Part shown: positions 19,183 to 63,976 of the stretch, piece by piece
Layout of the letters: every line of letters starts with the position of its first letter
Numbering within the stretch: position 1 is the stretch's first letter
DNA from: Escherichia phage EcS1
DNA length: 64,000 nt
Sequence record: NC_055721.1
Reading direction: 5' to 3' (one strand)
Position numbers and translations under genes: made by a program
Notes under the pieces: model-generated
Told to the model about the DNA's origin: nothing
The model's database searches: none
What the model saw: the letters and a program-made list of their open reading frames with translations, nothing else

Positions 19183-19402
19183 TAAATTCGTCCATCAGTT
19201 CGTTGAAGGTTTTGTGATATCTTACCATACCATCGATACTGCAAAGCCATAATTCATTCTGAGCTACACAGTCTTTGAATATTGGATTCGCCGAATTCGA
19301 GAATACATGGCTACCTGTTGCTCTTAAAAACTTAATAGGCGTTTGATAATATTCAGTTTCAAGAGTATCTTTTTGTAGACAATAATTATGAACGTTAAAC
19401 AT
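19157..19402 (-). CDS. Hypothetical protein (30.1-like)
   Basis: Small ORF downstream of ligase, start adjusted to avoid overlap. Confidence 0.35.
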   Translation of the reverse strand: MFNVHNYCLQKDTLETEYYQTPIKFLRATGSHVFSNSANPIFKDCVAQNELWLCSIDGMVRYHKTFNELMDEFNEYFSNPQ

Positions 19403-20241
19403 TACCAACGGTCCTTATCAAAAGTATAATGACATTTAAAGGGTCCAATTAATGGTTGAGCAAAGTCATGATCAACTATTTTAGGATGATTATTCATCCA
19501 TTCAGCTCGGAGTATAGAATCACCTTTACCAACATAAGACTTTCTTGCTTCTTCCATGATACCCATTCTCAACATGGCATCTTCCATAGAACTCATGATA
19601 TCCTTTACGGATTTAGAATTAAGTTCTTTAGCTAGATGTTCCCAATCATTAACAGCGTCATAAGATTTAAGATTAGGAGCAGTACGTTGACCACGTGGCA
19701 TGTGATACGAAACAACATCAGTTCCTTCAAATACTTTAACTGCAGATTCGATATGTGAACCAAGATCGTCTACATAGCAAACAACACGATCACCATATTT
19801 TTCTTTTACTTTTTCAAGCAGAACATCTTTTGATTCGTTGAAGTCGCAAACCATGATGTCTTTAAATGCACCTGGGAACAATGCGTTCAAATTGAATTGT
19901 CTATTCAAATGAGCGTCAACACTATTGCCTAATGCAGTCACGGCCACAAAGTCGTATTCTTTCTTAAGTTCATTAACCCATTTCACAGCATCATCATATG
20001 GCGCCAAATAACGAATGAAATCTGAGTTGTTATATTTCAAAAGAAGTTTAACGGCAAACTCTTCATCACATCCGAAGATTTCACCAGGCGGAACAAACTT
20101 ATCATCCACTAAAAAGTCTAAAATACCTTCAATAGGCAATTGATACTTCTGAGCGAAATAAGGCAGACCAGATTGCCATTTAACTAAGATGCCATCAACA
20201 TCTGTAGCAATTACTTTACGTTCTTTTTTCTGAGTCAGCAC
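19402..20241 (-). CDS. HAD-superfamily hydrolase-like protein (30.2-like)
   Basis: N-terminal VIATDVDGIL resembles HAD motif I (DxDG). Confidence 0.45.
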   Translation of the reverse strand: MLTQKKERKVIATDVDGILVKWQSGLPYFAQKYQLPIEGILDFLVDDKFVPPGEIFGCDEEFAVKLLLKYNNSDFIRYLAPYDDAVKWVNELKKEYDFVAVTALGNSVDAHLNRQFNLNALFPGAFKDIMVCDFNESKDVLLEKVKEKYGDRVVCYVDDLGSHIESAVKVFEGTDVVSYHMPRGQRTAPNLKSYDAVNDWEHLAKELNSKSVKDIMSSMEDAMLRMGIMEEARKSYVGKGDSILRAEWMNNHPKIVDHDFAQPLIGPFKCHYTFDKDRW

Positions 20242-22746: not shown

Positions 22747-22763
22747 TTGTTGATTGAGTGTAC

Positions 22764-22791
22764 ATCTTAACACAATCCTAGGAGAAGTAAA
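22764..22791 (-). promoter_or_regulatory. Early promoter (-35 TTTACT, 16 bp, -10 TAAGAT)
   Basis: Minus-strand reading; initial transcribed sequence shares TGATTGAGTGTACA with promoter at 21811. Confidence 0.45.
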
Positions 22792-22795
22792 CACC

Positions 22796-22990
22796 TTATT
22801 TTACATGACTGAATTCTACATCAGACCAGATGCCGAAAGGCGGAAGATTAGGTTCTTCTTTAAAGGCTAACTTTTTGACATCAGTCCAAGGCCAACAGCA
22901 AACTTCGTGCTCGTATAACCAGCATGTTCCTTGCAAAGGACTCTCAGGATGCATTTCTATAATTTTATAAACCAAAGTTTTCTTGAACAT
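22796..22990 (-). CDS. Hypothetical small protein
   Basis: Start moved to internal ATG with GAGGTG RBS; the track start lies inside the terminator hairpin. Confidence 0.35.
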   Translation of the reverse strand: MFKKTLVYKIIEMHPESPLQGTCWLYEHEVCCWPWTDVKKLAFKEEPNLPPFGIWSDVEFSHVK

Positions 22991-23015
22991 ATTCACCTCA
23001 TACAGATACAAAAAT

Positions 23016-23033
23016 GGGAGACCGAAGTCTCCC
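23016..23033 (-). terminator. UUCG-tetraloop terminator (GGGAGAC-UUCG-GUCUCCC then AUUUUUGU)
   Basis: Plus GGGAGACCGAAGTCTCCC; member of a dispersed repeat family. Confidence 0.7.
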
Positions 23034-23038
23034 ATAAC

Positions 23039-23218
23039 TTATGCTACAGCTCGCGGCTTTCCAAAACGAGAAGCATCGTCGCGTAACACGGCTCGTGCAC
23101 GACGCATAATCTTCTCAACTGTCTGATTAATACGCTTGTTCGACCCACGCTTATATTTCGCGCGTTTAGAGGTACCAACTACTTCTTTAACTGCTTGTTT
23201 CTTAGCTTGCTTAGCCAT
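23039..23218 (-). CDS. Small highly basic protein (59 aa; MAKQAKKQAVKEVVGTSKRAKYKRGSNKR...), not in ORF track
   Basis: ATG to TAA ORF verified by manual translation; Lys/Arg-rich; followed by terminator. Confidence 0.4.
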   Translation of the reverse strand: MAKQAKKQAVKEVVGTSKRAKYKRGSNKRINQTVEKIMRRARAVLRDDASRFGKPRAVA

Positions 23219-23539
23219 TTTATTCTTCCAATCTTGGAGTAAAGTTAGCTCTATGACTTACGGTTTCCCTGCATAGAGCCGTTTTCTGTTTGGTCATTTC
23301 ATGGCAGACCTACCAGAAGGTTTCGTTTATTTTACGTCTAGATAACCTACAACTACGACATCATACTACTTCTATCTGTTGCACACCGTTAGCTGGCCAT
23401 AGGCTGGGTCCGGGTCAGATTTCTCTGGGATAGAATATACATCAATGACTGTATAGGCCATGAGGTCACTCGGATTGTGAATCATTGTCCATCCGGTAAC
23501 ATGCCCTTGCCGTAATATGAACAAGTCCTCAAGGGGTAC

Positions 23540-23788
23540 TTATTTCAAAGTCACGATGAAGTGACGGACTGCTTTACGAGCTGCAGAACACAATGGCTTA
23601 GCATATTTCAGTTCATCTTGAATAGCCAGTTCAGTAGCCAAAGCTTTCTGAGAAGGATTCAGATGTTTGAAATATTCCAGGATGTCGAGAGCTTCAGCTT
23701 TAACATCAATGGAAGCACCATAGTTATCATGGCCTGCATTCCAGGATTTACGTTGGATGTCGAGAATAGATTTGATTAGTTCTTGCAT
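23540..23788 (-). CDS. Hypothetical 82-aa protein, possibly RIII (lysis inhibition accessory) by size and position next to gene 31
   Basis: 82 aa as T4 RIII; adjacent to 31; sequence identity not verified. Confidence 0.4.
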   Translation of the reverse strand: MQELIKSILDIQRKSWNAGHDNYGASIDVKAEALDILEYFKHLNPSQKALATELAIQDELKYAKPLCSAARKAVRHFIVTLK

Positions 23789-24611: not shown

Positions 24612-25163
24612 TTATTCGATTCCACAAAAGTTTTCAATTCGATTCCAGTCAAGAGACTTCAAATTAGTACGAGAATATTCGATGACTTCAAGACCTGAAT
24701 CACGTAAGATGTCATCCCAATTATCAGGAGAACGATCATATTTTTCAGCATAAACAACTTTCTTAATACCTGACTGAGCAATAGCTTTAGAACAATCAGG
24801 ACAAGGAGAAGCTGTTACGTACATCGTGGCGCCATCAATAGACGAGCCATTACGAGCAGCAAACAAAATAGCATTCAATTCAGCATGGATTTCATTACGA
24901 GCAGACCAAGAACTATGGGCTACTCGATGTTCTGCTTTAAGACCTACTCGATGATGGCGTTCACCTGGAATAAGTTTACCTTTACCTAACCAACCTTGTT
25001 CTGCAGCATGGTCACAACAGTTTACACCACCAGATGGAGTGCCATTATAGCCAGTAGAAATGATGCGACCATTCTTTTCAATGACCGCACCTACCTTCCA
25101 AGAACAACATTTAGATTCTTGAGAAATCAGATATGCAATCTGAAGATAAGTGCTAGATTTCAT
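24612..25163 (-). CDS. cd: dCMP deaminase
   Basis: Zinc-binding cytidine/dCMP deaminase motifs HAE (VHAELNAI) and PCPDC. Confidence 0.85.
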   Translation of the reverse strand: MKSSTYLQIAYLISQESKCCSWKVGAVIEKNGRIISTGYNGTPSGGVNCCDHAAEQGWLGKGKLIPGERHHRVGLKAEHRVAHSSWSARNEIHAELNAILFAARNGSSIDGATMYVTASPCPDCSKAIAQSGIKKVVYAEKYDRSPDNWDDILRDSGLEVIEYSRTNLKSLDWNRIENFCGIE

Positions 25164-25507
25164 TAAATCACCAAGTAAGTTGAGCGTTTAGTAGAAACCA
25201 ATTTTAGTCCTTCAATTGGTTCGACAATATTCTTTACAGTACCAATTGTGATGAATTCTGCATCTTTAAAACGATTCTTTTTATCGTTAAAGACTGTACC
25301 CATGTATTGGTAACCTAATTCTACGCCATGATTGTTTACAGCAATCAATACTGCATCATATTCTTCATCAGGGACCATTGAGACTGCGTGGTCCATACGC
25401 AGTTCGGTTAACACTTCATCGATGCCTTTTTGAGATACTTCACCACGTATACCAATCAAGTTCGCACGAAGAATTTTATCAATCTTTTCTTTTAGCATAT
25501 TGATCAA
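25163..25507 (-). CDS. Hypothetical protein downstream of and overlapping DAHP synthase gene
   Basis: 114-aa ORF overlapping the DAHPS 3' end by 29 nt; no confident motif. Confidence 0.4.
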   Translation of the reverse strand: MINMLKEKIDKILRANLIGIRGEVSQKGIDEVLTELRMDHAVSMVPDEEYDAVLIAVNNHGVELGYQYMGTVFNDKKNRFKDAEFITIGTVKNIVEPIEGLKLVSTKRSTYLVI

Positions 25508-26489
25508 TCTCTGTTAGAGTTTTAACTGTTTGTTCCCAGCCGATGCAAGCATCAGTCACTGAAACACCATACTTCATGTCACGAGAAATTTTCTGAGAAC
25601 CTTCGTTCAGATGAGATTCTATCATAAAACCTTTAACTAATTGGAAACCTGCTTTCAATACTTCTTTAGCTACGCCTGGTTGACGCGTGAAGTCTTTTTC
25701 ACTGTTCGAGTGTGAGCAGTCAACCATAACTGATTGGTTCACACCTGCGTGATACAGGTCGTCTAAGACATCAACAATATCGTCTTCATGATAGTTAGGA
25801 CCCTTATCACCGCCACGTAGAACGATGTGAGTGTTCTTATTGCCTACGGCATGAACGATACCTACGTTTCCGTTGTTATCCATACCTAAGTAACGGTGTG
25901 GGAACGCAGCAGATTTCATAGCATCAATAGCTACTTGAGCAGAACCATTTGTTCCATTCTTGAAGCCAACACACATAGGCAGACCTGAAGCGATTTCACG
26001 GTGTGTCTGTGATTCAGTCGTACGAGCGCCGATAGCAACCCATGAGAAAATACCACTAAGATACTTAATCGTGAATGGGTCAAGCACTTCAGTCGCTAAT
26101 GGAAGGCCAATATCTAAAAGGTCTAAACATAAACGACGAGCACAATGAAGACCATAGTTCAAGTCAAATGTGTCGTTCAAATGTGGGTCATTTACATAAC
26201 CTTTCCAACCTACAGTCGTACGAGGCTTTTCAAAATAAACACGCATAACTAACAATACGTCAGGCAATTGTTTTTGCAATTCAGCCAGACGTTGGCCATA
26301 TTCTAAAGCAGCTTTAGGGTCATGAATAGAACATGGACCCACTACAACAAGCTTACGATGGTTTTCGCCACACATAATGCGATTAACTTCTTCGCGATGT
26401 TTTTCTACTTGTTCTTTATGTCCTGCATGAAATGGAAGTTCACGAGCAAGTTCATTAGGCGAATACAACTGTTCTACAACCAAATTCAT
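25479..26489 (-). CDS. 3-deoxy-D-arabino-heptulosonate-7-phosphate (DAHP) synthase, class I (AroG/AroF/AroH-like)
   Basis: Colinear with E. coli AroG as recalled: GPCSIHD, MRVYFEKPRTTVGWKG, GARTTESQTHRE, GFKNGT, ILRGG, ESHLNEG, TDACIGWE. Confidence 0.9.
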   Translation of the reverse strand: MNLVVEQLYSPNELARELPFHAGHKEQVEKHREEVNRIMCGENHRKLVVVGPCSIHDPKAALEYGQRLAELQKQLPDVLLVMRVYFEKPRTTVGWKGYVNDPHLNDTFDLNYGLHCARRLCLDLLDIGLPLATEVLDPFTIKYLSGIFSWVAIGARTTESQTHREIASGLPMCVGFKNGTNGSAQVAIDAMKSAAFPHRYLGMDNNGNVGIVHAVGNKNTHIVLRGGDKGPNYHEDDIVDVLDDLYHAGVNQSVMVDCSHSNSEKDFTRQPGVAKEVLKAGFQLVKGFMIESHLNEGSQKISRDMKYGVSVTDACIGWEQTVKTLTEIDQYAKRKD

Positions 26490-26719
26490 TAAATTTCCCC
26501 AAAGATATTATGCATTTCTACAAGCCCGTCACGAGCATGTAATAATTGTGTGTGTTTAGACTTATGACCTTGCTGAACAGAAATAATTACAGCACTAGGC
26601 ACTAATGGGTCCTGGCGAAGAACTACTTCTGCACCAGGGATACGATTCGCAATTTCTTGAGCAAAGTTCTGAACTTTAGTCATGAACTCTTCACGAGTAA
26701 TAGGAGTATCTGAAATCAT
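26489..26719 (-). CDS. Hypothetical small protein
   Basis: ORF, start adjusted to internal Met. Confidence 0.35.
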   Translation of the reverse strand: MISDTPITREEFMTKVQNFAQEIANRIPGAEVVLRQDPLVPSAVIISVQQGHKSKHTQLLHARDGLVEMHNIFGEI

Positions 26720-26720
26720 T

Positions 26721-27182
26721 TTAACCCCAGTAGAACGAATAGCGTACAAAGAGCTTTTCACTTAAATCAAGTTCAAGATCAAAGTCTACTTTAAAGGAGG
26801 AATAAGTAACATCTAATTTAAAGTTAGTATCTTTAAGCAGAATATTCAGTACACCTGCAACTTCACCATGAATTTGTGCCTGAGTTCCAGGCTCATTAAT
26901 GTTTTCATAGAGATGATTAGAAATAACCTGTTTAACAACCAGTTCTAAGACTTCAGTGTAACGTGGGAACTGAGAAGACTTATCTTCATCCATAAAGCTA
27001 TTAATGAATTCCAGAGCTTGGTTTAAATTCACATGACCTGAATAAAAGCGTTCACGTGTTGTACGGTTAATAGCTACAATATAAGCTTTATCAACTGATG
27101 CTGTTTCATCAATATTAAAAGCAAATTTATTTTGCTTTTCTACAAGTGATTTAGCACCATATAAGGTTTCAAAGGTAATCAT
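26721..27182 (-). CDS. Hypothetical protein
   Basis: 153-aa ORF in the cd.x-like variable region. Confidence 0.4.
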   Translation of the reverse strand: MITFETLYGAKSLVEKQNKFAFNIDETASVDKAYIVAINRTTRERFYSGHVNLNQALEFINSFMDEDKSSQFPRYTEVLELVVKQVISNHLYENINEPGTQAQIHGEVAGVLNILLKDTNFKLDVTYSSFKVDFDLELDLSEKLFVRYSFYWG

Positions 27183-27382
27183 AGGTAATTTTCCTCTACG
27201 TATTTGAATACGCTTTTGTGTGTAAAGTGTCCACCATCAACAGTCTCTTCAGTATCGTAATCACGAATATCTAAAGCAACACCGTCTTCATTATGATGGA
27301 CAACAAAGATGAAACATTTACGTTCTTCGATTTCTTCAATCAAATCGTAGAGCTCACTAATATCTTCTAAATAGTCACACAT
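27179..27382 (-). CDS. Hypothetical acidic small protein
   Basis: 67-aa ORF overlapping pseT stop. Confidence 0.35.
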   Translation of the reverse strand: MCDYLEDISELYDLIEEIEERKCFIFVVHHNEDGVALDIRDYDTEETVDGGHFTHKSVFKYVEENYL

Positions 27383-28281
27383 TAAAAGTCACCATGAGCC
27401 ACTTGCCAACATTCAACACCGATACGACGCCACATTTCTACTACCTGTGCACGGTCATCGACAGCCAGAACTACATCATAATCTTGGACAATATCGTTCC
27501 AGAAGATTTCTTCTTTCACAACGTCATCTTTACGTGGGTCGCCTTGCTTGCGCTGGAAATGCTTTTCAGTCTGAATCATGTTTTCGTTTAGCCAATTGAT
27601 AGTAGCCACACGATGTTTCAGAGGCTCATCTTTGTTACCTGATTCACGTCCAGAGACGGTAAGGATTTTAAACCCTTGTTGTTGCAGCAATTTAAGAAGC
27701 AGTACAACCATCTCACGAGGAGTATCGTCACAGAGCTTATCAAGGTCGTAAGGAGAGCGGTGTTCGTTATCGGCTAATGTTCCATCAAGGTCAAAGATAA
27801 CCGCTTGAGGGCGCCCTTCAGGATAATCAGCGGATACATATTTCATTGGAACAGACATCTTAGCGTACATAGAACGTAAGACATCAATTGGAACAGCCTT
27901 TTCACCACGATACTGGTTACGTTTCAGAAGCTCGGTCCATGGAATATCAAAACGTTCGATTTCAAGCTTAGTTTCATGTTTAACAGAGAATTCTTGCCAC
28001 ACTTTCAGAGTAGTAGGGTTCAAGTTCGTATCGGCAATGATTACGCCTTTACATCCATCAAGAGCTAACAATGTTTGAGCTGAAGAGAATTGTACTTTAG
28101 AGACAGCTTTCTCTTTTTGCTTTGTATATTTGTATTGGTTACGATATTCGAGCCCAAACAACTTTTCACGGAAGTCATCACGTGACAGGATATAGAAGCC
28201 AGGGTTCTTAGCAACATATTCATTAGCCCAAGTAGTTTTACCTGAACCTGGAGCACCTTGAGTCAAAATAATCTTTTTCAT
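27382..28281 (-). CDS. pseT: Polynucleotide kinase / 3'-phosphatase
   Basis: Near-colinear with T4 Pnk as recalled: P-loop GAPGSGKTT, phosphatase DLDGTLA, C-terminal VVEMWRRIGVECWQVA. Confidence 0.9.
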   Translation of the reverse strand: MKKIILTQGAPGSGKTTWANEYVAKNPGFYILSRDDFREKLFGLEYRNQYKYTKQKEKAVSKVQFSSAQTLLALDGCKGVIIADTNLNPTTLKVWQEFSVKHETKLEIERFDIPWTELLKRNQYRGEKAVPIDVLRSMYAKMSVPMKYVSADYPEGRPQAVIFDLDGTLADNEHRSPYDLDKLCDDTPREMVVLLLKLLQQQGFKILTVSGRESGNKDEPLKHRVATINWLNENMIQTEKHFQRKQGDPRKDDVVKEEIFWNDIVQDYDVVLAVDDRAQVVEMWRRIGVECWQVAHGDF

Positions 28282-58869: not shown

Positions 58870-60243
58870 TTATTTGATTTCTTTAAGGTCTTTGGTGTAT
58901 TCAGTAACGACATCAGTCGTCTTCCAATACTCATGTTCTTCTTTTTTAGCTTTAGCTTCAAGTGCAAGCTTCTTGGCTTCATCAGAAGTAATATGATAGA
59001 TGTTCATTGCAACAAGTTTATCAGCATAATCAGGCCAAGTCTGAGAGACTTCTTCTAACAACTCTTTACGAGTCTTGCCTTGTAATACGATCTTACCATC
59101 AATAACTGTTTTAATGAATTGAGCCTTAGCCAAAGCTAATTTAAAGGCTTCTTCAGTTTCACAGATTTTAAGGTCAATACGTTTTTGAATATAAACTTTA
59201 CGAACATCGACGAATCGACGAATCAAATCAGAAGCACATGTGAATTCTTCTAATTTACCCTTCTCATTAATTACTGTAATGTTCTGGGTACGTCGTTCAA
59301 CAAGCCCAAAGTCTTTCATGATTTTTTCATGTCGTTGTTCTTCATCTTCACTAAGAATATATTCTTTACGAAGTTTAACCTTGAAGCCAAAACCGGTTTT
59401 AGAACAATCATCATCATATGTAATGAAACCAGCATCTTCAAGTGGGTCAAGAATCTTGGTTACATATTTTTCACGGTCCCACTTATATGGAACTTCACTG
59501 ATATAAAGCTGAGTTCGTGAAGTGAATTTATACTTACCACGAATTTCATATTTACCTGGCTCAGTTGTAATAACTTCACCTTCGAATCGTGGGAAAACCA
59601 CATCAGGTTCTTTATTCAACTTACCTTTAAGAGCTAGTTTAGTACACTCAACAACAGATGCTAAACCATGCGGCATGATGTTAGTAGCATACCCTGTAGC
59701 GATACCAGACACACCATTCAAAAGAACAGTTGGAATCACAGGCAAATAAAAACGTGGTGGGATATGTTCTTTATCTTCGTGTTCAGGAGCATATTCAGAG
59801 TCTTTATAAATGTGATAGAAGTTCTCTGAAACTCGCCCGAAAATATAACGTGATGCTGCCGCTTCTTGAACTAATCGAGAACCAAAGTTACCTTCGCCAT
59901 CTAGCATTGGAAGATTATTGTTCCAATCGTTCGCCATTAATGCGCCTGCATCTTGGGCTGAACCTTCGCCATGGTGATAACCCAAGTCGGCTACGCCACC
60001 TGCAATAGAAGCAAGTTTATGGAACTTAGTTTTATTACCACGAGCTAAATCTAATGCACGATGGACCACAAATCGTTGGACTGGTTTAAAGCCATCAATC
60101 ATATTAGGAATGGCCCGGTTTTCAACCGTATACATTGCATAAGCTAAGGCTTCGTTATCGATAATACTTTTTAGACCACGAATATTCAATGAATCTAAAG
60201 TATCTGTTGTTTGCTTAAAAACAATATCTAAAATATCTGCCAT
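58870..60243 (-). CDS. 52: DNA topoisomerase II medium subunit gp52
   Basis: 457 aa (T4 gp52 442); GyrA/ParC-like N-terminal region; position after motA. Confidence 0.8.
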   Translation of the reverse strand: MADILDIVFKQTTDTLDSLNIRGLKSIIDNEALAYAMYTVENRAIPNMIDGFKPVQRFVVHRALDLARGNKTKFHKLASIAGGVADLGYHHGEGSAQDAGALMANDWNNNLPMLDGEGNFGSRLVQEAAASRYIFGRVSENFYHIYKDSEYAPEHEDKEHIPPRFYLPVIPTVLLNGVSGIATGYATNIMPHGLASVVECTKLALKGKLNKEPDVVFPRFEGEVITTEPGKYEIRGKYKFTSRTQLYISEVPYKWDREKYVTKILDPLEDAGFITYDDDCSKTGFGFKVKLRKEYILSEDEEQRHEKIMKDFGLVERRTQNITVINEKGKLEEFTCASDLIRRFVDVRKVYIQKRIDLKICETEEAFKLALAKAQFIKTVIDGKIVLQGKTRKELLEEVSQTWPDYADKLVAMNIYHITSDEAKKLALEAKAKKEEHEYWKTTDVVTEYTKDLKEIK

Positions 60244-62974: not shown

Positions 62975-63976
62975 TTATAATGAACCAGCTTTGAAAGCTT
63001 CTGTTTTATCTTCAAGAACCAGATAACCCGTGGTACGCATTTTAGCATTGTGGTAATCAATGGGGATACTTACAACATCACGTGGGTGGACTTTAACAGA
63101 CACGACTTTGTTATTCGCACAGCCACCATAACTACCAAGGTAAGATTTAGAACAAACATGCAGACCATGAGAACAAGTACGGTTATCGTCTTCATCAACT
63201 TGGTTACGTGGAACGCTCAGAGTTTTACCTGGGCTATTGTCCATCTTACCGGTGTAGATATCTTTATAGTCTTCAGCTACTTTCTTCCAAGCGATGAAGT
63301 AACCATCAGCAGTGATTTGAATATCATTAGCTTCTAGGAAATCGTACAGACGATAAACAGCTTTACGGCTTGGGTTCAACATCAAGTTTTCAAGGAATGG
63401 CAACAAGAAGGTGAATTCTTTGCCTTCTTCCATCAGAGTCAGAATACGCTTAGTCAGACCAGAATCGATAGCTAGATCTTTATAAGTCAGTTCACCATCT
63501 TCAATTTTAACGTTACCTTTAACGAAGGCCTTTACAGCGCGTTCAACGTTAATCAGGTCAAGTGCAGCTTGAATATCACCATCAACCAGTTTCTGTAGAG
63601 CTTGTTTGAAATTAGGATGATCTTTATCTGCGTTCCAAGTTTCACGACCCTGAGAGATAGAGATGAACTTAGAGTTAGCATTCCAGATGAATTCAGGAGC
63701 ACGAGTAGCTAGATGATTTTTAAGTTTAGTTATGTCAACAGAACCATTCAAATAAACTGTGGTTGAAGCCGCTTTAGTCAAGGCTTCTTTAATCAAAGTT
63801 TTACCCGATTTGATTTCTACTTTAGTCAGAGTAGGTTCAACTTCTTTAATAACACGACGAATAGTGTCAGGCGATACACCATAATCACGAGCCAATTCAG
63901 ATTTATTTTTCAGACCTGACTTAAAGGTCTTCACGATTTTTGCTTTTTCGGTTTTAGAAAGAATTGATACAGCCAT
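62975..63976 (-). CDS. rIIB: rIIB lysis-inhibition / rapid-lysis protein
   Basis: Matches T4 rIIB as recalled (VSPDTIRRV, FLENL..NPS.KAV.RL.DFL.ANDI.IT.DGYF.AWK, CS.GLHVCSKSY, VKVHPRDVVSIPIDY..AKMRT). Confidence 0.85.
   Translation of the reverse strand: MAVSILSKTEKAKIVKTFKSGLKNKSELARDYGVSPDTIRRVIKEVEPTLTKVEIKSGKTLIKEALTKAASTTVYLNGSVDITKLKNHLATRAPEFIWNANSKFISISQGRETWNADKDHPNFKQALQKLVDGDIQAALDLINVERAVKAFVKGNVKIEDGELTYKDLAIDSGLTKRILTLMEEGKEFTFLLPFLENLMLNPSRKAVYRLYDFLEANDIQITADGYFIAWKKVAEDYKDIYTGKMDNSPGKTLSVPRNQVDEDDNRTCSHGLHVCSKSYLGSYGGCANNKVVSVKVHPRDVVSIPIDYHNAKMRTTGYLVLEDKTEAFKAGSL

What the first reader, a model, noticed from the sequence alone, without database searches (positions are those of the whole stretch)
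25163..27382. Phage-encoded class I DAHP synthase in a small accessory island between cd and pseT
A complete AroG-like DAHP synthase (first committed step of the shikimate / aromatic amino acid pathway) with all catalytic motifs I can recognise sits inside the nucleotide-metabolism block of a T4-like genome, where T4 has only small cd.x ORFs. It is flanked by four uncharacterised ORFs (114, 77, 153 and 67 aa), one overlapping its 3' end. Seen in sequence: the motifs and gene order. Inference: the phage rewires host aromatic precursor supply, possibly escaping Tyr/Phe/Trp feedback inhibition; the overlapping 114-aa ORF could be a regulatory or partner subunit. Whether this has been described for related phages I cannot determine without a search.
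Basis: partly seen in the sequence, partly recalled or inferred. Interest (0 to 1): 0.75.

Follow-up and report, generated by a model that had tools for sequence, protein, structure and literature searches.

The report
Phage DAHP synthase, already annotated
This T4-like phage (Escherichia phage EcS1) really does carry an intact gene for the first enzyme of aromatic amino-acid synthesis, but the gene is already annotated in this phage and about 200 others; the one new point is that the phage versions have specifically rebuilt the site where the bacterial enzyme is switched off by its end products.

Summary
ORF 25479-26489(-) is a complete class I-alpha DAHP synthase (TIGR00034, 451 bits against a cut-off of 173). 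All metal-, PEP- and E4P-binding residues are intact.

It is not new. The protein is 100% identical to the record named 'phospho-2-dehydro-3-deoxyheptonate aldolase [Escherichia phage EcS1]'. It belongs to PHROG 5045 and occurs in 211 deposited phage genomes, in the same cd-pseT slot in every locus examined.

The four 'uncharacterised' flanking ORFs are collinear orthologs of T4 Cd.1-Cd.4. The 'island' is therefore a single gene inserted between cd.1 and cd.2. The partner-subunit idea fails, because Cd.1 and DAHPS have largely disjoint distributions.

The feedback-escape inference is supported by sequence only:
- All 27 phage-clade proteins lack the N-terminal segment (AroF K3-I11).
- Only seven alignment columns separate the phage clade from cellular homologs: AroG P150I, Q151K, D155G, L156I, S180P, F209Y, T223A.
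- Five of the seven are documented feedback-resistance or inhibitor-site positions (P = 4e-7).
- The gene is under purifying selection (dN/dS about 0.2).

Best reading: an active, probably Tyr/Phe/Trp-insensitive DAHPS that keeps carbon entering the shikimate pathway during infection. No functional study was found, and an enzyme assay is needed.

The parts
25479..26489 (-). Phage class I-alpha DAHP synthase (3-deoxy-7-phosphoheptulonate synthase), 336 aa; the only inserted gene
   Evidence: PF00793 E=3.7e-80; TIGR00034 450.8 bits and PRK12755 466.7 bits, both above cut-off; phrog_5045 E=7e-163; AroF 6agm E=1e-108; 100% identical to the Escherichia phage EcS1 protein.
25551..26333 (-). Span holding the catalytic residues: C53, H260, E291, D313 (metal); R83, K88, R156, K177, R225 (PEP); K88-P89-R90-T91 (the KPRT E4P motif)
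   Evidence: Identical to AroG C61, H268, E302, D326, R92, K97, R165, K186, R234 and K97-T100, in all 127 aligned sequences but one (a T100S cellular variant).
25848..26081 (-). Remodelled regulatory pocket: I141, K142, G146, I147, P171, Y200, A214 (AroG P150, Q151, D155, L156, S180, F209, T223); G202 is the AroF/Tyr-type residue
   Evidence: These are the only seven columns fixed in both clades with different residues. Five of the seven are among 12 literature regulatory positions, P=4e-7. Residue map.
26460..26489 (-). Shortened N-terminus: only 10 residues precede the AroG P19 equivalent (17-38 in cellular homologs); AroG Y3-I10 and AroF K3-I11 are absent
   Evidence: Deleting AroF Ile11 alone gives a Tyr-insensitive enzyme (PMC5791370).
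25163..25498 (-). Context: T4 Cd.1 ortholog (111 aa from ATG 25498; the longest ORF starts at TTG 25507). It overlaps the DAHPS 3' end by 20 nt, and its stop overlaps the cd start (TAATG)
   Evidence: BLASTP against T4 Cd.1 E=3e-13; phrog_2063; sequence; distribution.
26489..26719 (-). Context: T4 Cd.2 ortholog (76 aa, DUF7320); its stop overlaps the DAHPS start codon (TAATG)
   Evidence: PF24005 E=7.5e-31; T4 Cd.2 E=2e-9; sequence.
26721..27182 (-). Context: T4 Cd.3 ortholog (DUF7355 in residues 71-152) with an orphan 70-aa N-terminal extension
   Evidence: PF24051 E=7e-21; T4 Cd.3 E=2e-11; the extension has no tblastn match.
27179..27382 (-). Context: T4 Cd.4 ortholog (67 aa)
   Evidence: T4 Cd.4 E=9e-13; phrog_2360.
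24612..25163 (-). Context: dCMP deaminase (cd), downstream boundary of the slot
   Evidence: PF00383 E=3e-26.
27382..28281 (-). Context: polynucleotide kinase/phosphatase (pseT), upstream boundary of the slot
   Evidence: PF25109 E=5.8e-54 and PF13671 E=7e-20.

Best explanation
The gene encodes a catalytically competent class I-alpha DAHP synthase, which condenses PEP and erythrose-4-phosphate into DAHP. An ancestor of a subset of T4-like phages captured it once from an AroF-like (Tyr-type) cellular gene, probably gammaproteobacterial. It was inserted between cd.1 and cd.2 and is translated within the tightly packed pseT-cd gene string.

After capture, the regulatory site was rebuilt. The N-terminal segment that closes the inhibitor site was deleted, and the residues that hold the inhibitor's main chain were replaced (P150I, Q151K, S180P, plus D155G, L156I, F209Y, T223A).

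The most likely consequence is an enzyme that tyrosine, phenylalanine and tryptophan can no longer switch off. In an infected cell the host's own AroF/G/H are feedback-inhibited and are no longer resynthesised. The phage enzyme would keep carbon flowing into the shikimate pathway, with host enzymes AroB to AroC doing the rest. This would sustain chorismate and aromatic amino-acid supply for the burst of phage protein synthesis.

Shown here: family membership, intact catalytic residues, single origin, conserved locus, purifying selection, and the specific remodelling of the regulatory site. Inferred: enzyme activity, insensitivity to aromatic amino acids, and the physiological benefit.
For: - Family and catalytic residues. 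C61, R92, K97, R99, T100, R165, K186, R234, H268, E302 and D326 are identical across the alignment.
- The KPRT motif typical of DAHPS is retained.
- AroF-type origin: the best PDB hit is AroF; it has G at AroG 211 and P at AroG 147, as AroF does; the nearest cellular hits are named AroF or come from gammaproteobacteria, at 53-56% identity.
- Single origin: all 27 short proteins form one NJ clade with no cellular sequence inside it.
- Same cd-pseT slot in Winklervirus, JK45/Mosigvirus-type, Marfavirus, Bragavirus and a metagenomic T4-like contig.
- Purifying selection: dN/dS 0.16-0.24. GC3 is 0.31, like its neighbours, so the acquisition is old.
- Regulatory remodelling: only seven discriminating columns, five of them among 12 documented regulatory positions (P=4e-7), and all seven within two residues of one.
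- AroG P150L, S180F, L175D and F209A/S are feedback-resistant. Q151/Q152 and S180/S181 bind the inhibitor main chain (PMC9529685).
- AroF becomes Tyr-insensitive when P148 or Q152 is replaced or Ile11 is deleted (PMC5791370). The phage deletion spans AroF K3-I11.
- TAATG stop/start overlaps on both sides place the gene in the cd/pseT translation string.
Against: - No enzyme assay exists, and none was found in the literature.
- The remodelled pocket is not decaying. It is the most conserved part of the phage proteins (entropy 0.11 for AroG columns 140-185, against 1.01 overall). A site that had simply lost its function would not be expected to look like this, so a new ligand or a structural role at the dimer interface remains possible.
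- The beta6a/beta6b insertion that builds the regulatory sheet is retained.
- The branch enzymes downstream (PheA, TyrA, TrpE) remain feedback-controlled by the host. A deregulated DAHPS alone may therefore raise chorismate rather than aromatic amino acids (established pathway knowledge).
- From memory and not verified here: N-terminal truncation of AroG has been reported to affect dimer formation, so the shortened N-terminus may have effects beyond regulation.
Confidence: 0.6

Rival explanations
1. The enzyme is still allosterically controlled, but by a different ligand. The pocket was re-purposed, not destroyed: a lysine replaces Q151 and the N-terminal lid is removed, opening the site. Shikimate-pathway entry would then respond to an infection-specific metabolite, for example an anionic nucleotide or sugar-phosphate, chorismate, or prephenate.
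For: The seven clade-specific substitutions are fixed at 94% or more across phage genera that are only 53-74% identical overall. The pocket-bearing segment is the most conserved part of the protein (entropy 0.11 against 1.01). The beta6a/beta6b regulatory insertion is kept. Q151K introduces a positive charge.
Against: No candidate ligand is known. The segment also carries active-site residues (G163-R165) and lies at the tight-dimer interface, so its conservation may be structural. The basal members P0025 and P0027 differ at positions 150, 151 and 155. S180P and loss of the lid both fit simple loss of binding equally well.
Confidence: 0.15
2. The enzyme's main role is as a sink for erythrose-4-phosphate and PEP. 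This would redirect the non-oxidative pentose-phosphate pathway toward pentose phosphates for nucleotides and for arabinosylation of phage DNA cytosines. Making aromatic compounds would be secondary.
For: Many DAHPS-positive lineages (Mosigvirus, Winklervirus, Edwardsiella phages PEi20/PEi26) also carry the arabinose-5-phosphate isomerase of the arabinosyl-5-hydroxycytosine pathway (PMC13326640). The gene sits in the nucleotide-metabolism block.
Against: The co-occurrence is not obligate. Klebsiella (25 records) and Proteus (7) phages carry DAHPS, but neither name reaches the listed top ten of isomerase hits (at most 3 records each). Yersinia (6) and most Acinetobacter (19) phages have the isomerase without DAHPS. 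The overlap is explained by shared ancestry (Mosigvirus dominates both lists). E4P is itself an intermediate on the route to ribose-5-P, so draining it is not clearly helpful (pathway knowledge). No isomerase lies in this window.
Confidence: 0.1
3. The enzyme has shifted substrate specificity. It would condense PEP with arabinose-5-P or another aldose phosphate (KDO8P-synthase-like chemistry), or feed a non-aromatic product.
For: From memory and not tested here: class I-alpha DAHPS is known to accept some five-carbon aldose phosphates poorly in vitro. Many carriers also encode an arabinose-5-P isomerase.
Against: Every substrate-binding residue, including the KPRT motif (KDO8P synthases have KANRS), is identical to AroF/G/H. 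The clade-specific changes are all at the regulatory site and none at the active site. Only DAHPS models score above cut-off.
Confidence: 0.04
4. It is a functionless passenger (a moron) carried in a hyperplastic region.
For: The cd-pseT interval is variable among T4-like phages, and T4 itself does without the gene.
Against: dN/dS is 0.16-0.24 across five genera. Catalytic residues are fully retained. Codon composition is ameliorated. The gene keeps the same locus through deep divergence.
Confidence: 0.02

Closest known systems
E. coli AroF (Tyr-sensitive class I-alpha DAHP synthase; PDB 6agm/6agl), with its paralogs AroG and AroH
   Same: Same family. Identity is 52% to AroF, 49% to AroG and 45% to AroH over 335 aligned residues. 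The metal, PEP and E4P residues are identical. It has Gly at AroG position 211 and Pro at position 147, as AroF does. The beta6a/beta6b insertion is retained.
   Different: It lacks AroF residues K3-I11. It has I, K, G, I, P, Y and A at AroG positions 150, 151, 155, 156, 180, 209 and 223, where the ~100 cellular homologs aligned nearly all have P, Q, D, L, S, F and T. It scores below the AroG equivalog cut-off (385 against 568) and the AroH cut-off (386 against 463). It is 336 aa, against 348-356.
PHROG 5045 / annotated phage 'phospho-2-dehydro-3-deoxyheptonate aldolase' of Mosigvirus, Winklervirus, Marfavirus, Bragavirus and Kanagawavirus
   Same: It is a member (E=7e-163). It is 58-74% identical to these proteins, sits in the same cd-pseT slot and has the same regulatory-site signature. 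The identical protein is already deposited for Escherichia phage EcS1.
   Different: Nothing of substance. EcS1 and Winklervirus keep cd.1 between DAHPS and cd, whereas JK45 and Marfa have DAHPS directly next to cd.
Engineered feedback-resistant alleles (AroG P150L, S180F, L175D, F209A; AroF P148L, Q152I, delta-Ile11)
   Same: The phage clade naturally carries changes at the same positions (150, 151/152, 175, 180, 209) and lacks the Ile11 region.
   Different: The engineered alleles are single laboratory mutations. The phage signature is a fixed combination of seven substitutions plus a deletion, and the residues differ (I, K, P, Y rather than L, I, F, A). Its phenotype is untested.
PhzC-type (type IIB) DAHP synthases of phenazine and other secondary-metabolite clusters
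   Same: This is a functional analogy. A dedicated extra DAHPS copy has lost the elements that form aromatic amino-acid allosteric sites, and so supplies chorismate regardless of amino-acid pools (PMC6435475).
   Different: It is a different family (type II, PF01474; less than 10% identity to type I). Regulation was lost there by omission of helices alpha2a/alpha2b. It is chromosomal and part of a biosynthetic operon, not a lone phage gene.
Cyanophage carbon-metabolism AMGs (e.g. transaldolase talC)
   Same: The concept is the same: a T4-like phage carries a single host-derived central-metabolism enzyme to redirect host flux during infection (from my own knowledge, not tested here).
   Different: Different enzyme, pathway and host group. 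Those genes have physiological and biochemical support; this one has none.

Membership tests
Class I-alpha DAHP synthase (AroF/G/H; PF00793, TIGR00034) | Profile score above the curated cut-off | tested here: met
   PF00793 269 bits (cut-off 25.5); TIGR00034 450.8 (173.2); PRK12755 466.7 (343).
Class I-alpha DAHP synthase (AroF/G/H; PF00793, TIGR00034) | Metal-binding tetrad Cys61/His268/Glu302/Asp326 (AroG numbering) | tested here: met
   C53, H260, E291, D313.
Class I-alpha DAHP synthase (AroF/G/H; PF00793, TIGR00034) | PEP-binding residues R92, K97, R165, K186, R234, and the KPR(S/T) E4P motif (KDO8P synthase has KANRS) | tested here: met
   R83, K88, R156, K177, R225; K88-P89-R90-T91.
Class I-alpha DAHP synthase (AroF/G/H; PF00793, TIGR00034) | I-alpha extra-barrel elements: the N-terminal extension and the beta6a/beta6b insertion | tested here: inconclusive
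   The beta6a/beta6b region aligns without a gap. The N-terminal extension is shortened by 8-9 residues (10 residues before the P19 equivalent, against 17-38 in cellular homologs).
Class I-alpha DAHP synthase (AroF/G/H; PF00793, TIGR00034) | DAHP synthase activity with PEP + E4P | not testable with these tools
   Needs an enzyme assay or complementation of an aroF aroG aroH mutant.
Feedback-regulated isozymes AroG (Phe), AroF (Tyr), AroH (Trp) in the strict (equivalog) sense | Equivalog or subfamily score above the cut-off | tested here: not met
   AroG equivalog NF006723 scores 385.2, below 568. AroH NF009396 scores 386, below 463.
Feedback-regulated isozymes AroG (Phe), AroF (Tyr), AroH (Trp) in the strict (equivalog) sense | Conserved inhibitor-site residues P150, Q151, D155, S180, F209 and the N-terminal lid (AroG D6/D7/I10; AroF N8/I11) | tested here: not met
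   I141, K142, G146, P171 and Y200 in their place, and the lid is deleted. Cellular homologs keep the canonical residues at 95-100%.
Feedback-regulated isozymes AroG (Phe), AroF (Tyr), AroH (Trp) in the strict (equivalog) sense | Inhibition by an aromatic amino acid | not testable with these tools
   Needs kinetics with and without Tyr, Phe and Trp.
Phage DAHPS family (PHROG 5045) | Profile match, and monophyly with the phage proteins | tested here: met
   E=7e-163 over 329 of 341 profile positions. It lies inside the 27-member phage-only NJ clade.
Phage DAHPS family (PHROG 5045) | Location in the cd-pseT interval of a T4-like genome | tested here: met
KDO8P synthase (considered as an alternative) | KDO8PS profile match and KANRS motif | tested here: not met
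   No KDO8PS model appears among the NCBIfam or Pfam hits. The motif is KPRT.
Type II / PhzC-like DAHP synthase (considered as a functional analogue) | PF01474 match | tested here: not met
   Only PF00793 was hit. The analogy is functional only.

The most novel reading that the evidence does not exclude
The phage proteins form a distinct, uncharacterised natural subtype of class I-alpha DAHP synthase. In it the aromatic amino-acid pocket has been converted, not lost, into a site for a different, infection-relevant effector, or into a constitutively 'on' conformation that selection maintains. This would give T4-like phages their own control point on shikimate and chorismate flux, possibly coordinated with the nucleotide and DNA-sugar metabolism encoded around it.
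Probability: 0.12. Interest if true: 0.6.

Novelty: already known. Interest (0 to 1): 0.3.

Why it matters
The finding as written (a phage carrying DAHP synthase) matters little. It is in GenBank for this phage and about 200 others, in PHROGs, and in passing remarks in genome papers.

What is worth keeping is a cheap, directly testable hypothesis. No searchable paper appears to have characterised the enzyme. The sequence comparison shows that the only fixed differences between the phage clade and the cellular homologs sampled (the 100 or so closest, plus E. coli AroF/G/H) lie at the feedback site.

If the enzyme is naturally insensitive to Tyr, Phe and Trp, two things follow:
- It would explain why a lytic phage bothers to carry the gate-keeping enzyme of an amino-acid pathway.
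- It would offer a ready-made, evolution-tested feedback-resistant DAHPS for aromatic-compound production strains.

Tried and rejected
- Partner-subunit idea for the 114-aa ORF. Rejected: it is T4 Cd.1, no ORF lies between DAHPS and cd in JK45 and Marfa, and its phage distribution is largely disjoint from that of DAHPS.
- 'Accessory island'. Rejected: Cd.2, Cd.3 and Cd.4 orthologs account for the other ORFs.
- Obligate link to DNA arabinosylation. I searched phages with E. coli KdsD. The overlap is partial and follows phylogeny. No isomerase was found among the ten large window ORFs scanned.
- Own promoter or terminator for the gene. The sigma-70 and terminator scans were not above shuffled expectation. 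MotA-box-like motifs were only weakly enriched (9 against 4.05 expected).
- tRNA and Rfam scans of the window found nothing.
- Fetching the EcS1 record (LC371242, an accession recalled from memory) failed; it is not in the phage collection. The closest DNA there is 78% identical (Winklervirus).
- Six literature searches aimed at phage DAHPS found only two passing mentions and no functional characterisation (mentions). Two DNA-modification papers on Tevenvirinae do not mention the gene.
- The first Python attempt failed because fetched loci are bundled into shared files.
- Not attempted: structure prediction of DAHPS, because 52% identity to solved structures makes it uninformative about regulation and no coordinates are returned; and of Cd.1 and Cd.3, because that needs another costly homolog search for a side question that comparative genomics already answered.


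Full report
**1. What is there**

The 336-aa ORF at 25479-26489 is a class I-alpha DAHP synthase:
- Pfam DAHP_synth_1, E=3.7e-80.
- NCBIfam TIGR00034 aroFGH, 450.8 bits (cut-off 173.2), and PRK12755, 466.7 bits (cut-off 343).
- Best solved relative: E. coli AroF (6agm, E=1e-108).

I aligned it with E. coli AroG, AroF and AroH and with 120 database homologs. Every residue that binds the metal (AroG C61, H268, E302, D326), PEP (R92, K97, R165, K186, R234) or the E4P phosphate (the KPRT motif) is present.

**2. Which genome, and is it new**

The protein is 100% identical over its full length to a public protein named 'phospho-2-dehydro-3-deoxyheptonate aldolase [Escherichia phage EcS1]', on a 175,437-bp contig. 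EcS1 is Kagamiyamavirus ecs1, in Tevenvirinae. The record is absent from the phage collection available here, where the closest DNA is Winklervirus at about 78% identity.

The family is already catalogued and annotated:
- It is PHROG 5045, filed under 'moron, auxiliary metabolic gene and host takeover' (E=7e-163).
- tblastn finds it in 211 deposited phage records, most of them annotated as this enzyme. They include Mosigvirus-type Escherichia and Shigella phages (about 68% identity), Winklervirus (73-74%), Klebsiella Marfavirus (63%), Proteus Bragavirus (58%) and Edwardsiella phages.
- A survey of Danish wastewater coliphages lists 'a DAHP synthase present in ... Mosigvirus' among putative AMGs of unknown function (bioRxiv 10.1101/2020.01.19.911818).
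- The phiC120 genome paper mentions the domain (PMC8022965).

I found no paper that characterises the enzyme. The searchable library does not cover subscription journals.

**3. The 'island' is one gene**

T4 has cd.1-cd.5 between cd and pseT. The four flanking ORFs here match T4 genes in T4 order:

| Window ORF | T4 ortholog | E-value |
|---|---|---|
| 114 aa | Cd.1 | 3e-13 |
| 90/76 aa (DUF7320) | Cd.2 | 2e-9 |
| 153 aa, C-terminal half (DUF7355) | Cd.3 | 2e-11 |
| 67 aa | Cd.4 | 9e-13 |

DAHPS is therefore a single-gene insertion between cd.1 and cd.2.

The junctions are typical of T4-like translational packing. The Cd.2 stop and DAHPS start overlap as TAATG. The Cd.1 stop and cd start overlap the same way. 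Cd.1 most likely starts at ATG 25498, 20 nt inside DAHPS, exactly as annotated in phage LC53. Nothing in the promoter or terminator scans suggests an independent transcription unit. Two MotA-box-like motifs lie upstream, but the motif is only weakly enriched in the window.

The idea that the overlapping ORF is a partner subunit fails on three counts:
- T4 has Cd.1 without DAHPS.
- JK45 and Marfa have no ORF between DAHPS and cd, where cd.1 sits in EcS1.
- Cd.1 homologs (244 records) are mostly in Klebsiella, Enterobacter and Salmonella phages, with only 15 in Escherichia phages. DAHPS is concentrated in Escherichia and Shigella phages.

**4. Origin and maintenance**

In a neighbour-joining tree of 127 sequences, all 27 short (319-343 aa) proteins form one clade with no cellular sequence inside it. 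EcS1 groups with the Winklervirus proteins, as the genomes do (PMC10132071).

The gene occupies the cd-pseT interval in Winklervirus, JK45, Marfavirus, Bragavirus and a 29-kb metagenomic T4-like contig. The most basal variant, P0025, is also on a T4-like contig.

The nearest cellular proteins are 53-56% identical. Those with names are enterobacterial AroF or homologs from Marinobacter and Haemophilus. The phage proteins also carry the AroF-type residues, P at AroG 147 and G at AroG 211.

Pairwise dN/dS among five genera is 0.16-0.24, with dS saturated. GC3 is 0.31, within the range of the neighbouring genes.

Together this indicates one old capture of an AroF-like gene, kept under purifying selection.

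**5. The regulatory site**

This is the part that goes beyond the annotation. I compared 17 non-redundant phage-clade sequences with 19 non-redundant cellular ones. Only seven alignment columns are fixed (90% or more) in both groups with different residues:

| AroG position | Cellular | Phage clade |
|---|---|---|
| 150 | P | I |
| 151 | Q | K |
| 155 | D | G |
| 156 | L | I |
| 180 | S | P |
| 209 | F | Y |
| 223 | T | A |

Five of these seven are among 12 positions that the literature ties to feedback inhibition (hypergeometric P=4e-7). All seven lie within two residues of such a position.

The review PMC9529685 states that AroG P150L, S180F, L175D, L179A, F209A/S and V221A are feedback-resistant. 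It also states that Q151 (AroF Q152) and S180 (AroF S181) bind the inhibitor's main chain, and that D155 forms a stabilising salt bridge in this region. PMC5791370 states that Tyr-insensitive AroF arises by replacing P148 or Q152 or by deleting Ile11.

All phage-clade proteins also have only 8-12 residues before the AroG P19 equivalent, against 17-38 in cellular homologs. In EcS1 the missing stretch corresponds to AroG Y3-I10 and AroF K3-I11. From my own knowledge of the AroG-Phe structure (Shumilin et al. 2002, not re-read here), D6 and D7 of the neighbouring subunit help close the inhibitor site.

It is not demonstrated.

**6. A caveat that keeps a rival alive**

The remodelled segment is not decaying. 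AroG columns 140-185 have an entropy of 0.11 in the phage clade, against 1.01 for the whole protein (cellular: 0.41 against 1.14). The beta6a/beta6b insertion of the regulatory sheet is retained.

This could reflect active-site and dimer-interface constraints. It could also mean the pocket now binds something else.

**7. Other rivals**

- *E4P/PEP sink for pentose-phosphate rewiring or DNA arabinosylation.* Many carriers (Mosigvirus, Winklervirus, Edwardsiella phages) also encode the arabinose-5-phosphate isomerase of the arabinosyl-5-hydroxycytosine pathway. However, Klebsiella and Proteus phages carry DAHPS while neither name reaches the top ten of isomerase hits. Yersinia and most Acinetobacter T4-like phages show the reverse pattern. 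The coupling is not obligate and largely tracks phylogeny.
- *Altered substrate specificity.* This is unlikely, because no clade-specific change touches the active site and the DAHPS-type KPRT motif is kept.
- *Passenger gene.* This is unlikely given the purifying selection.

**8. Comparison with known systems**

The gene is a member of the class I-alpha DAHPS family and of PHROG 5045. It is not an AroG or AroH equivalog by NCBIfam cut-offs, and it fails the conserved-inhibitor-site test.

Functionally it resembles two things. One is the set of engineered feedback-resistant aroG/aroF alleles. The other, by analogy only, is the PhzC-type type IIB DAHPS. Those have lost the structural elements for aromatic amino-acid allostery and serve secondary metabolism (PMC6435475).

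**9. Verdict**

The finding itself is already known: it is annotated in this very phage and in many relatives. Interest is modest (0.3). The useful residue is a sharp, inexpensive hypothesis, a naturally deregulated or re-regulated DAHPS, for an AMG whose role no searchable paper has tested.

Noticed in passing
window 26973-27182 (-): The Cd.3 ortholog (153 aa) has a 70-residue N-terminal extension that T4 Cd.3 (91 aa) lacks. LC53 has an 88-aa ORF at the corresponding position. The extension has no tblastn match in 50,697 phage records at E<=1e-3.
   Followed up: partly
L010 2517-3515 and L012 6001-7032 (metagenomic contigs): Two basal phage-clade DAHPS variants carry intermediate regulatory signatures. 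P0025 keeps P150 but has K151, G155, P180 and Y209. P0027 has I150, R151, N155 and P180. P0027 sits in the pseT-DAHPS-cd slot. P0025 (ENA metagenome assemblies, one labelled crustacean metagenome) lies beside a 394-aa protein with a faint Zeta_toxin hit and a Phage_T4_Y05Q gene. Together they may record the order in which the pocket was remodelled.
   Followed up: partly
window 22750-23750: There is a local GC bump (0.43-0.44, against a window mean of 0.377) around a Lys/Arg-rich 59-aa ORF (23039-23218, minus strand). It is followed by a stretch of about 320 nt (23219-23539) with only short ORFs, upstream of the rIII-like gene. No tRNA or Rfam family matched.
   Followed up: no
window 26815-26839 and 27254-27278 (-): Two matches to a T4 middle-promoter-like pattern (MotA box TGCTTNA, then 11-13 nt, then TANNNT) lie inside cd.3 and cd.4, upstream of DAHPS on the coding strand. 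The pattern is only weakly enriched in the window (9 matches against 4.05 expected; 4 of 100 shuffles reach 9).
   Followed up: partly
window 62975-63976 (-): A 333-aa ORF near the topoisomerase subunit gene (58870-60243) has only weak N-terminal helix-turn-helix Pfam hits, nearly all below their cut-offs, and nothing for the remaining 280 or so residues.
   Followed up: no
window 19402-20241 (-): A 279-aa ORF (GTG start) has no Pfam match at E<=0.001.
   Followed up: no
L003 (Shigella phage JK45, NC_054940.1): The record is classified as Tequatrovirus jaykay. It nevertheless carries both the DAHPS shared with the Mosigvirus-type Escherichia and Shigella phages and an arabinose-5-phosphate isomerase, neither of which T4 has. 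Its genus label or its mosaic history may deserve a look.
   Followed up: no
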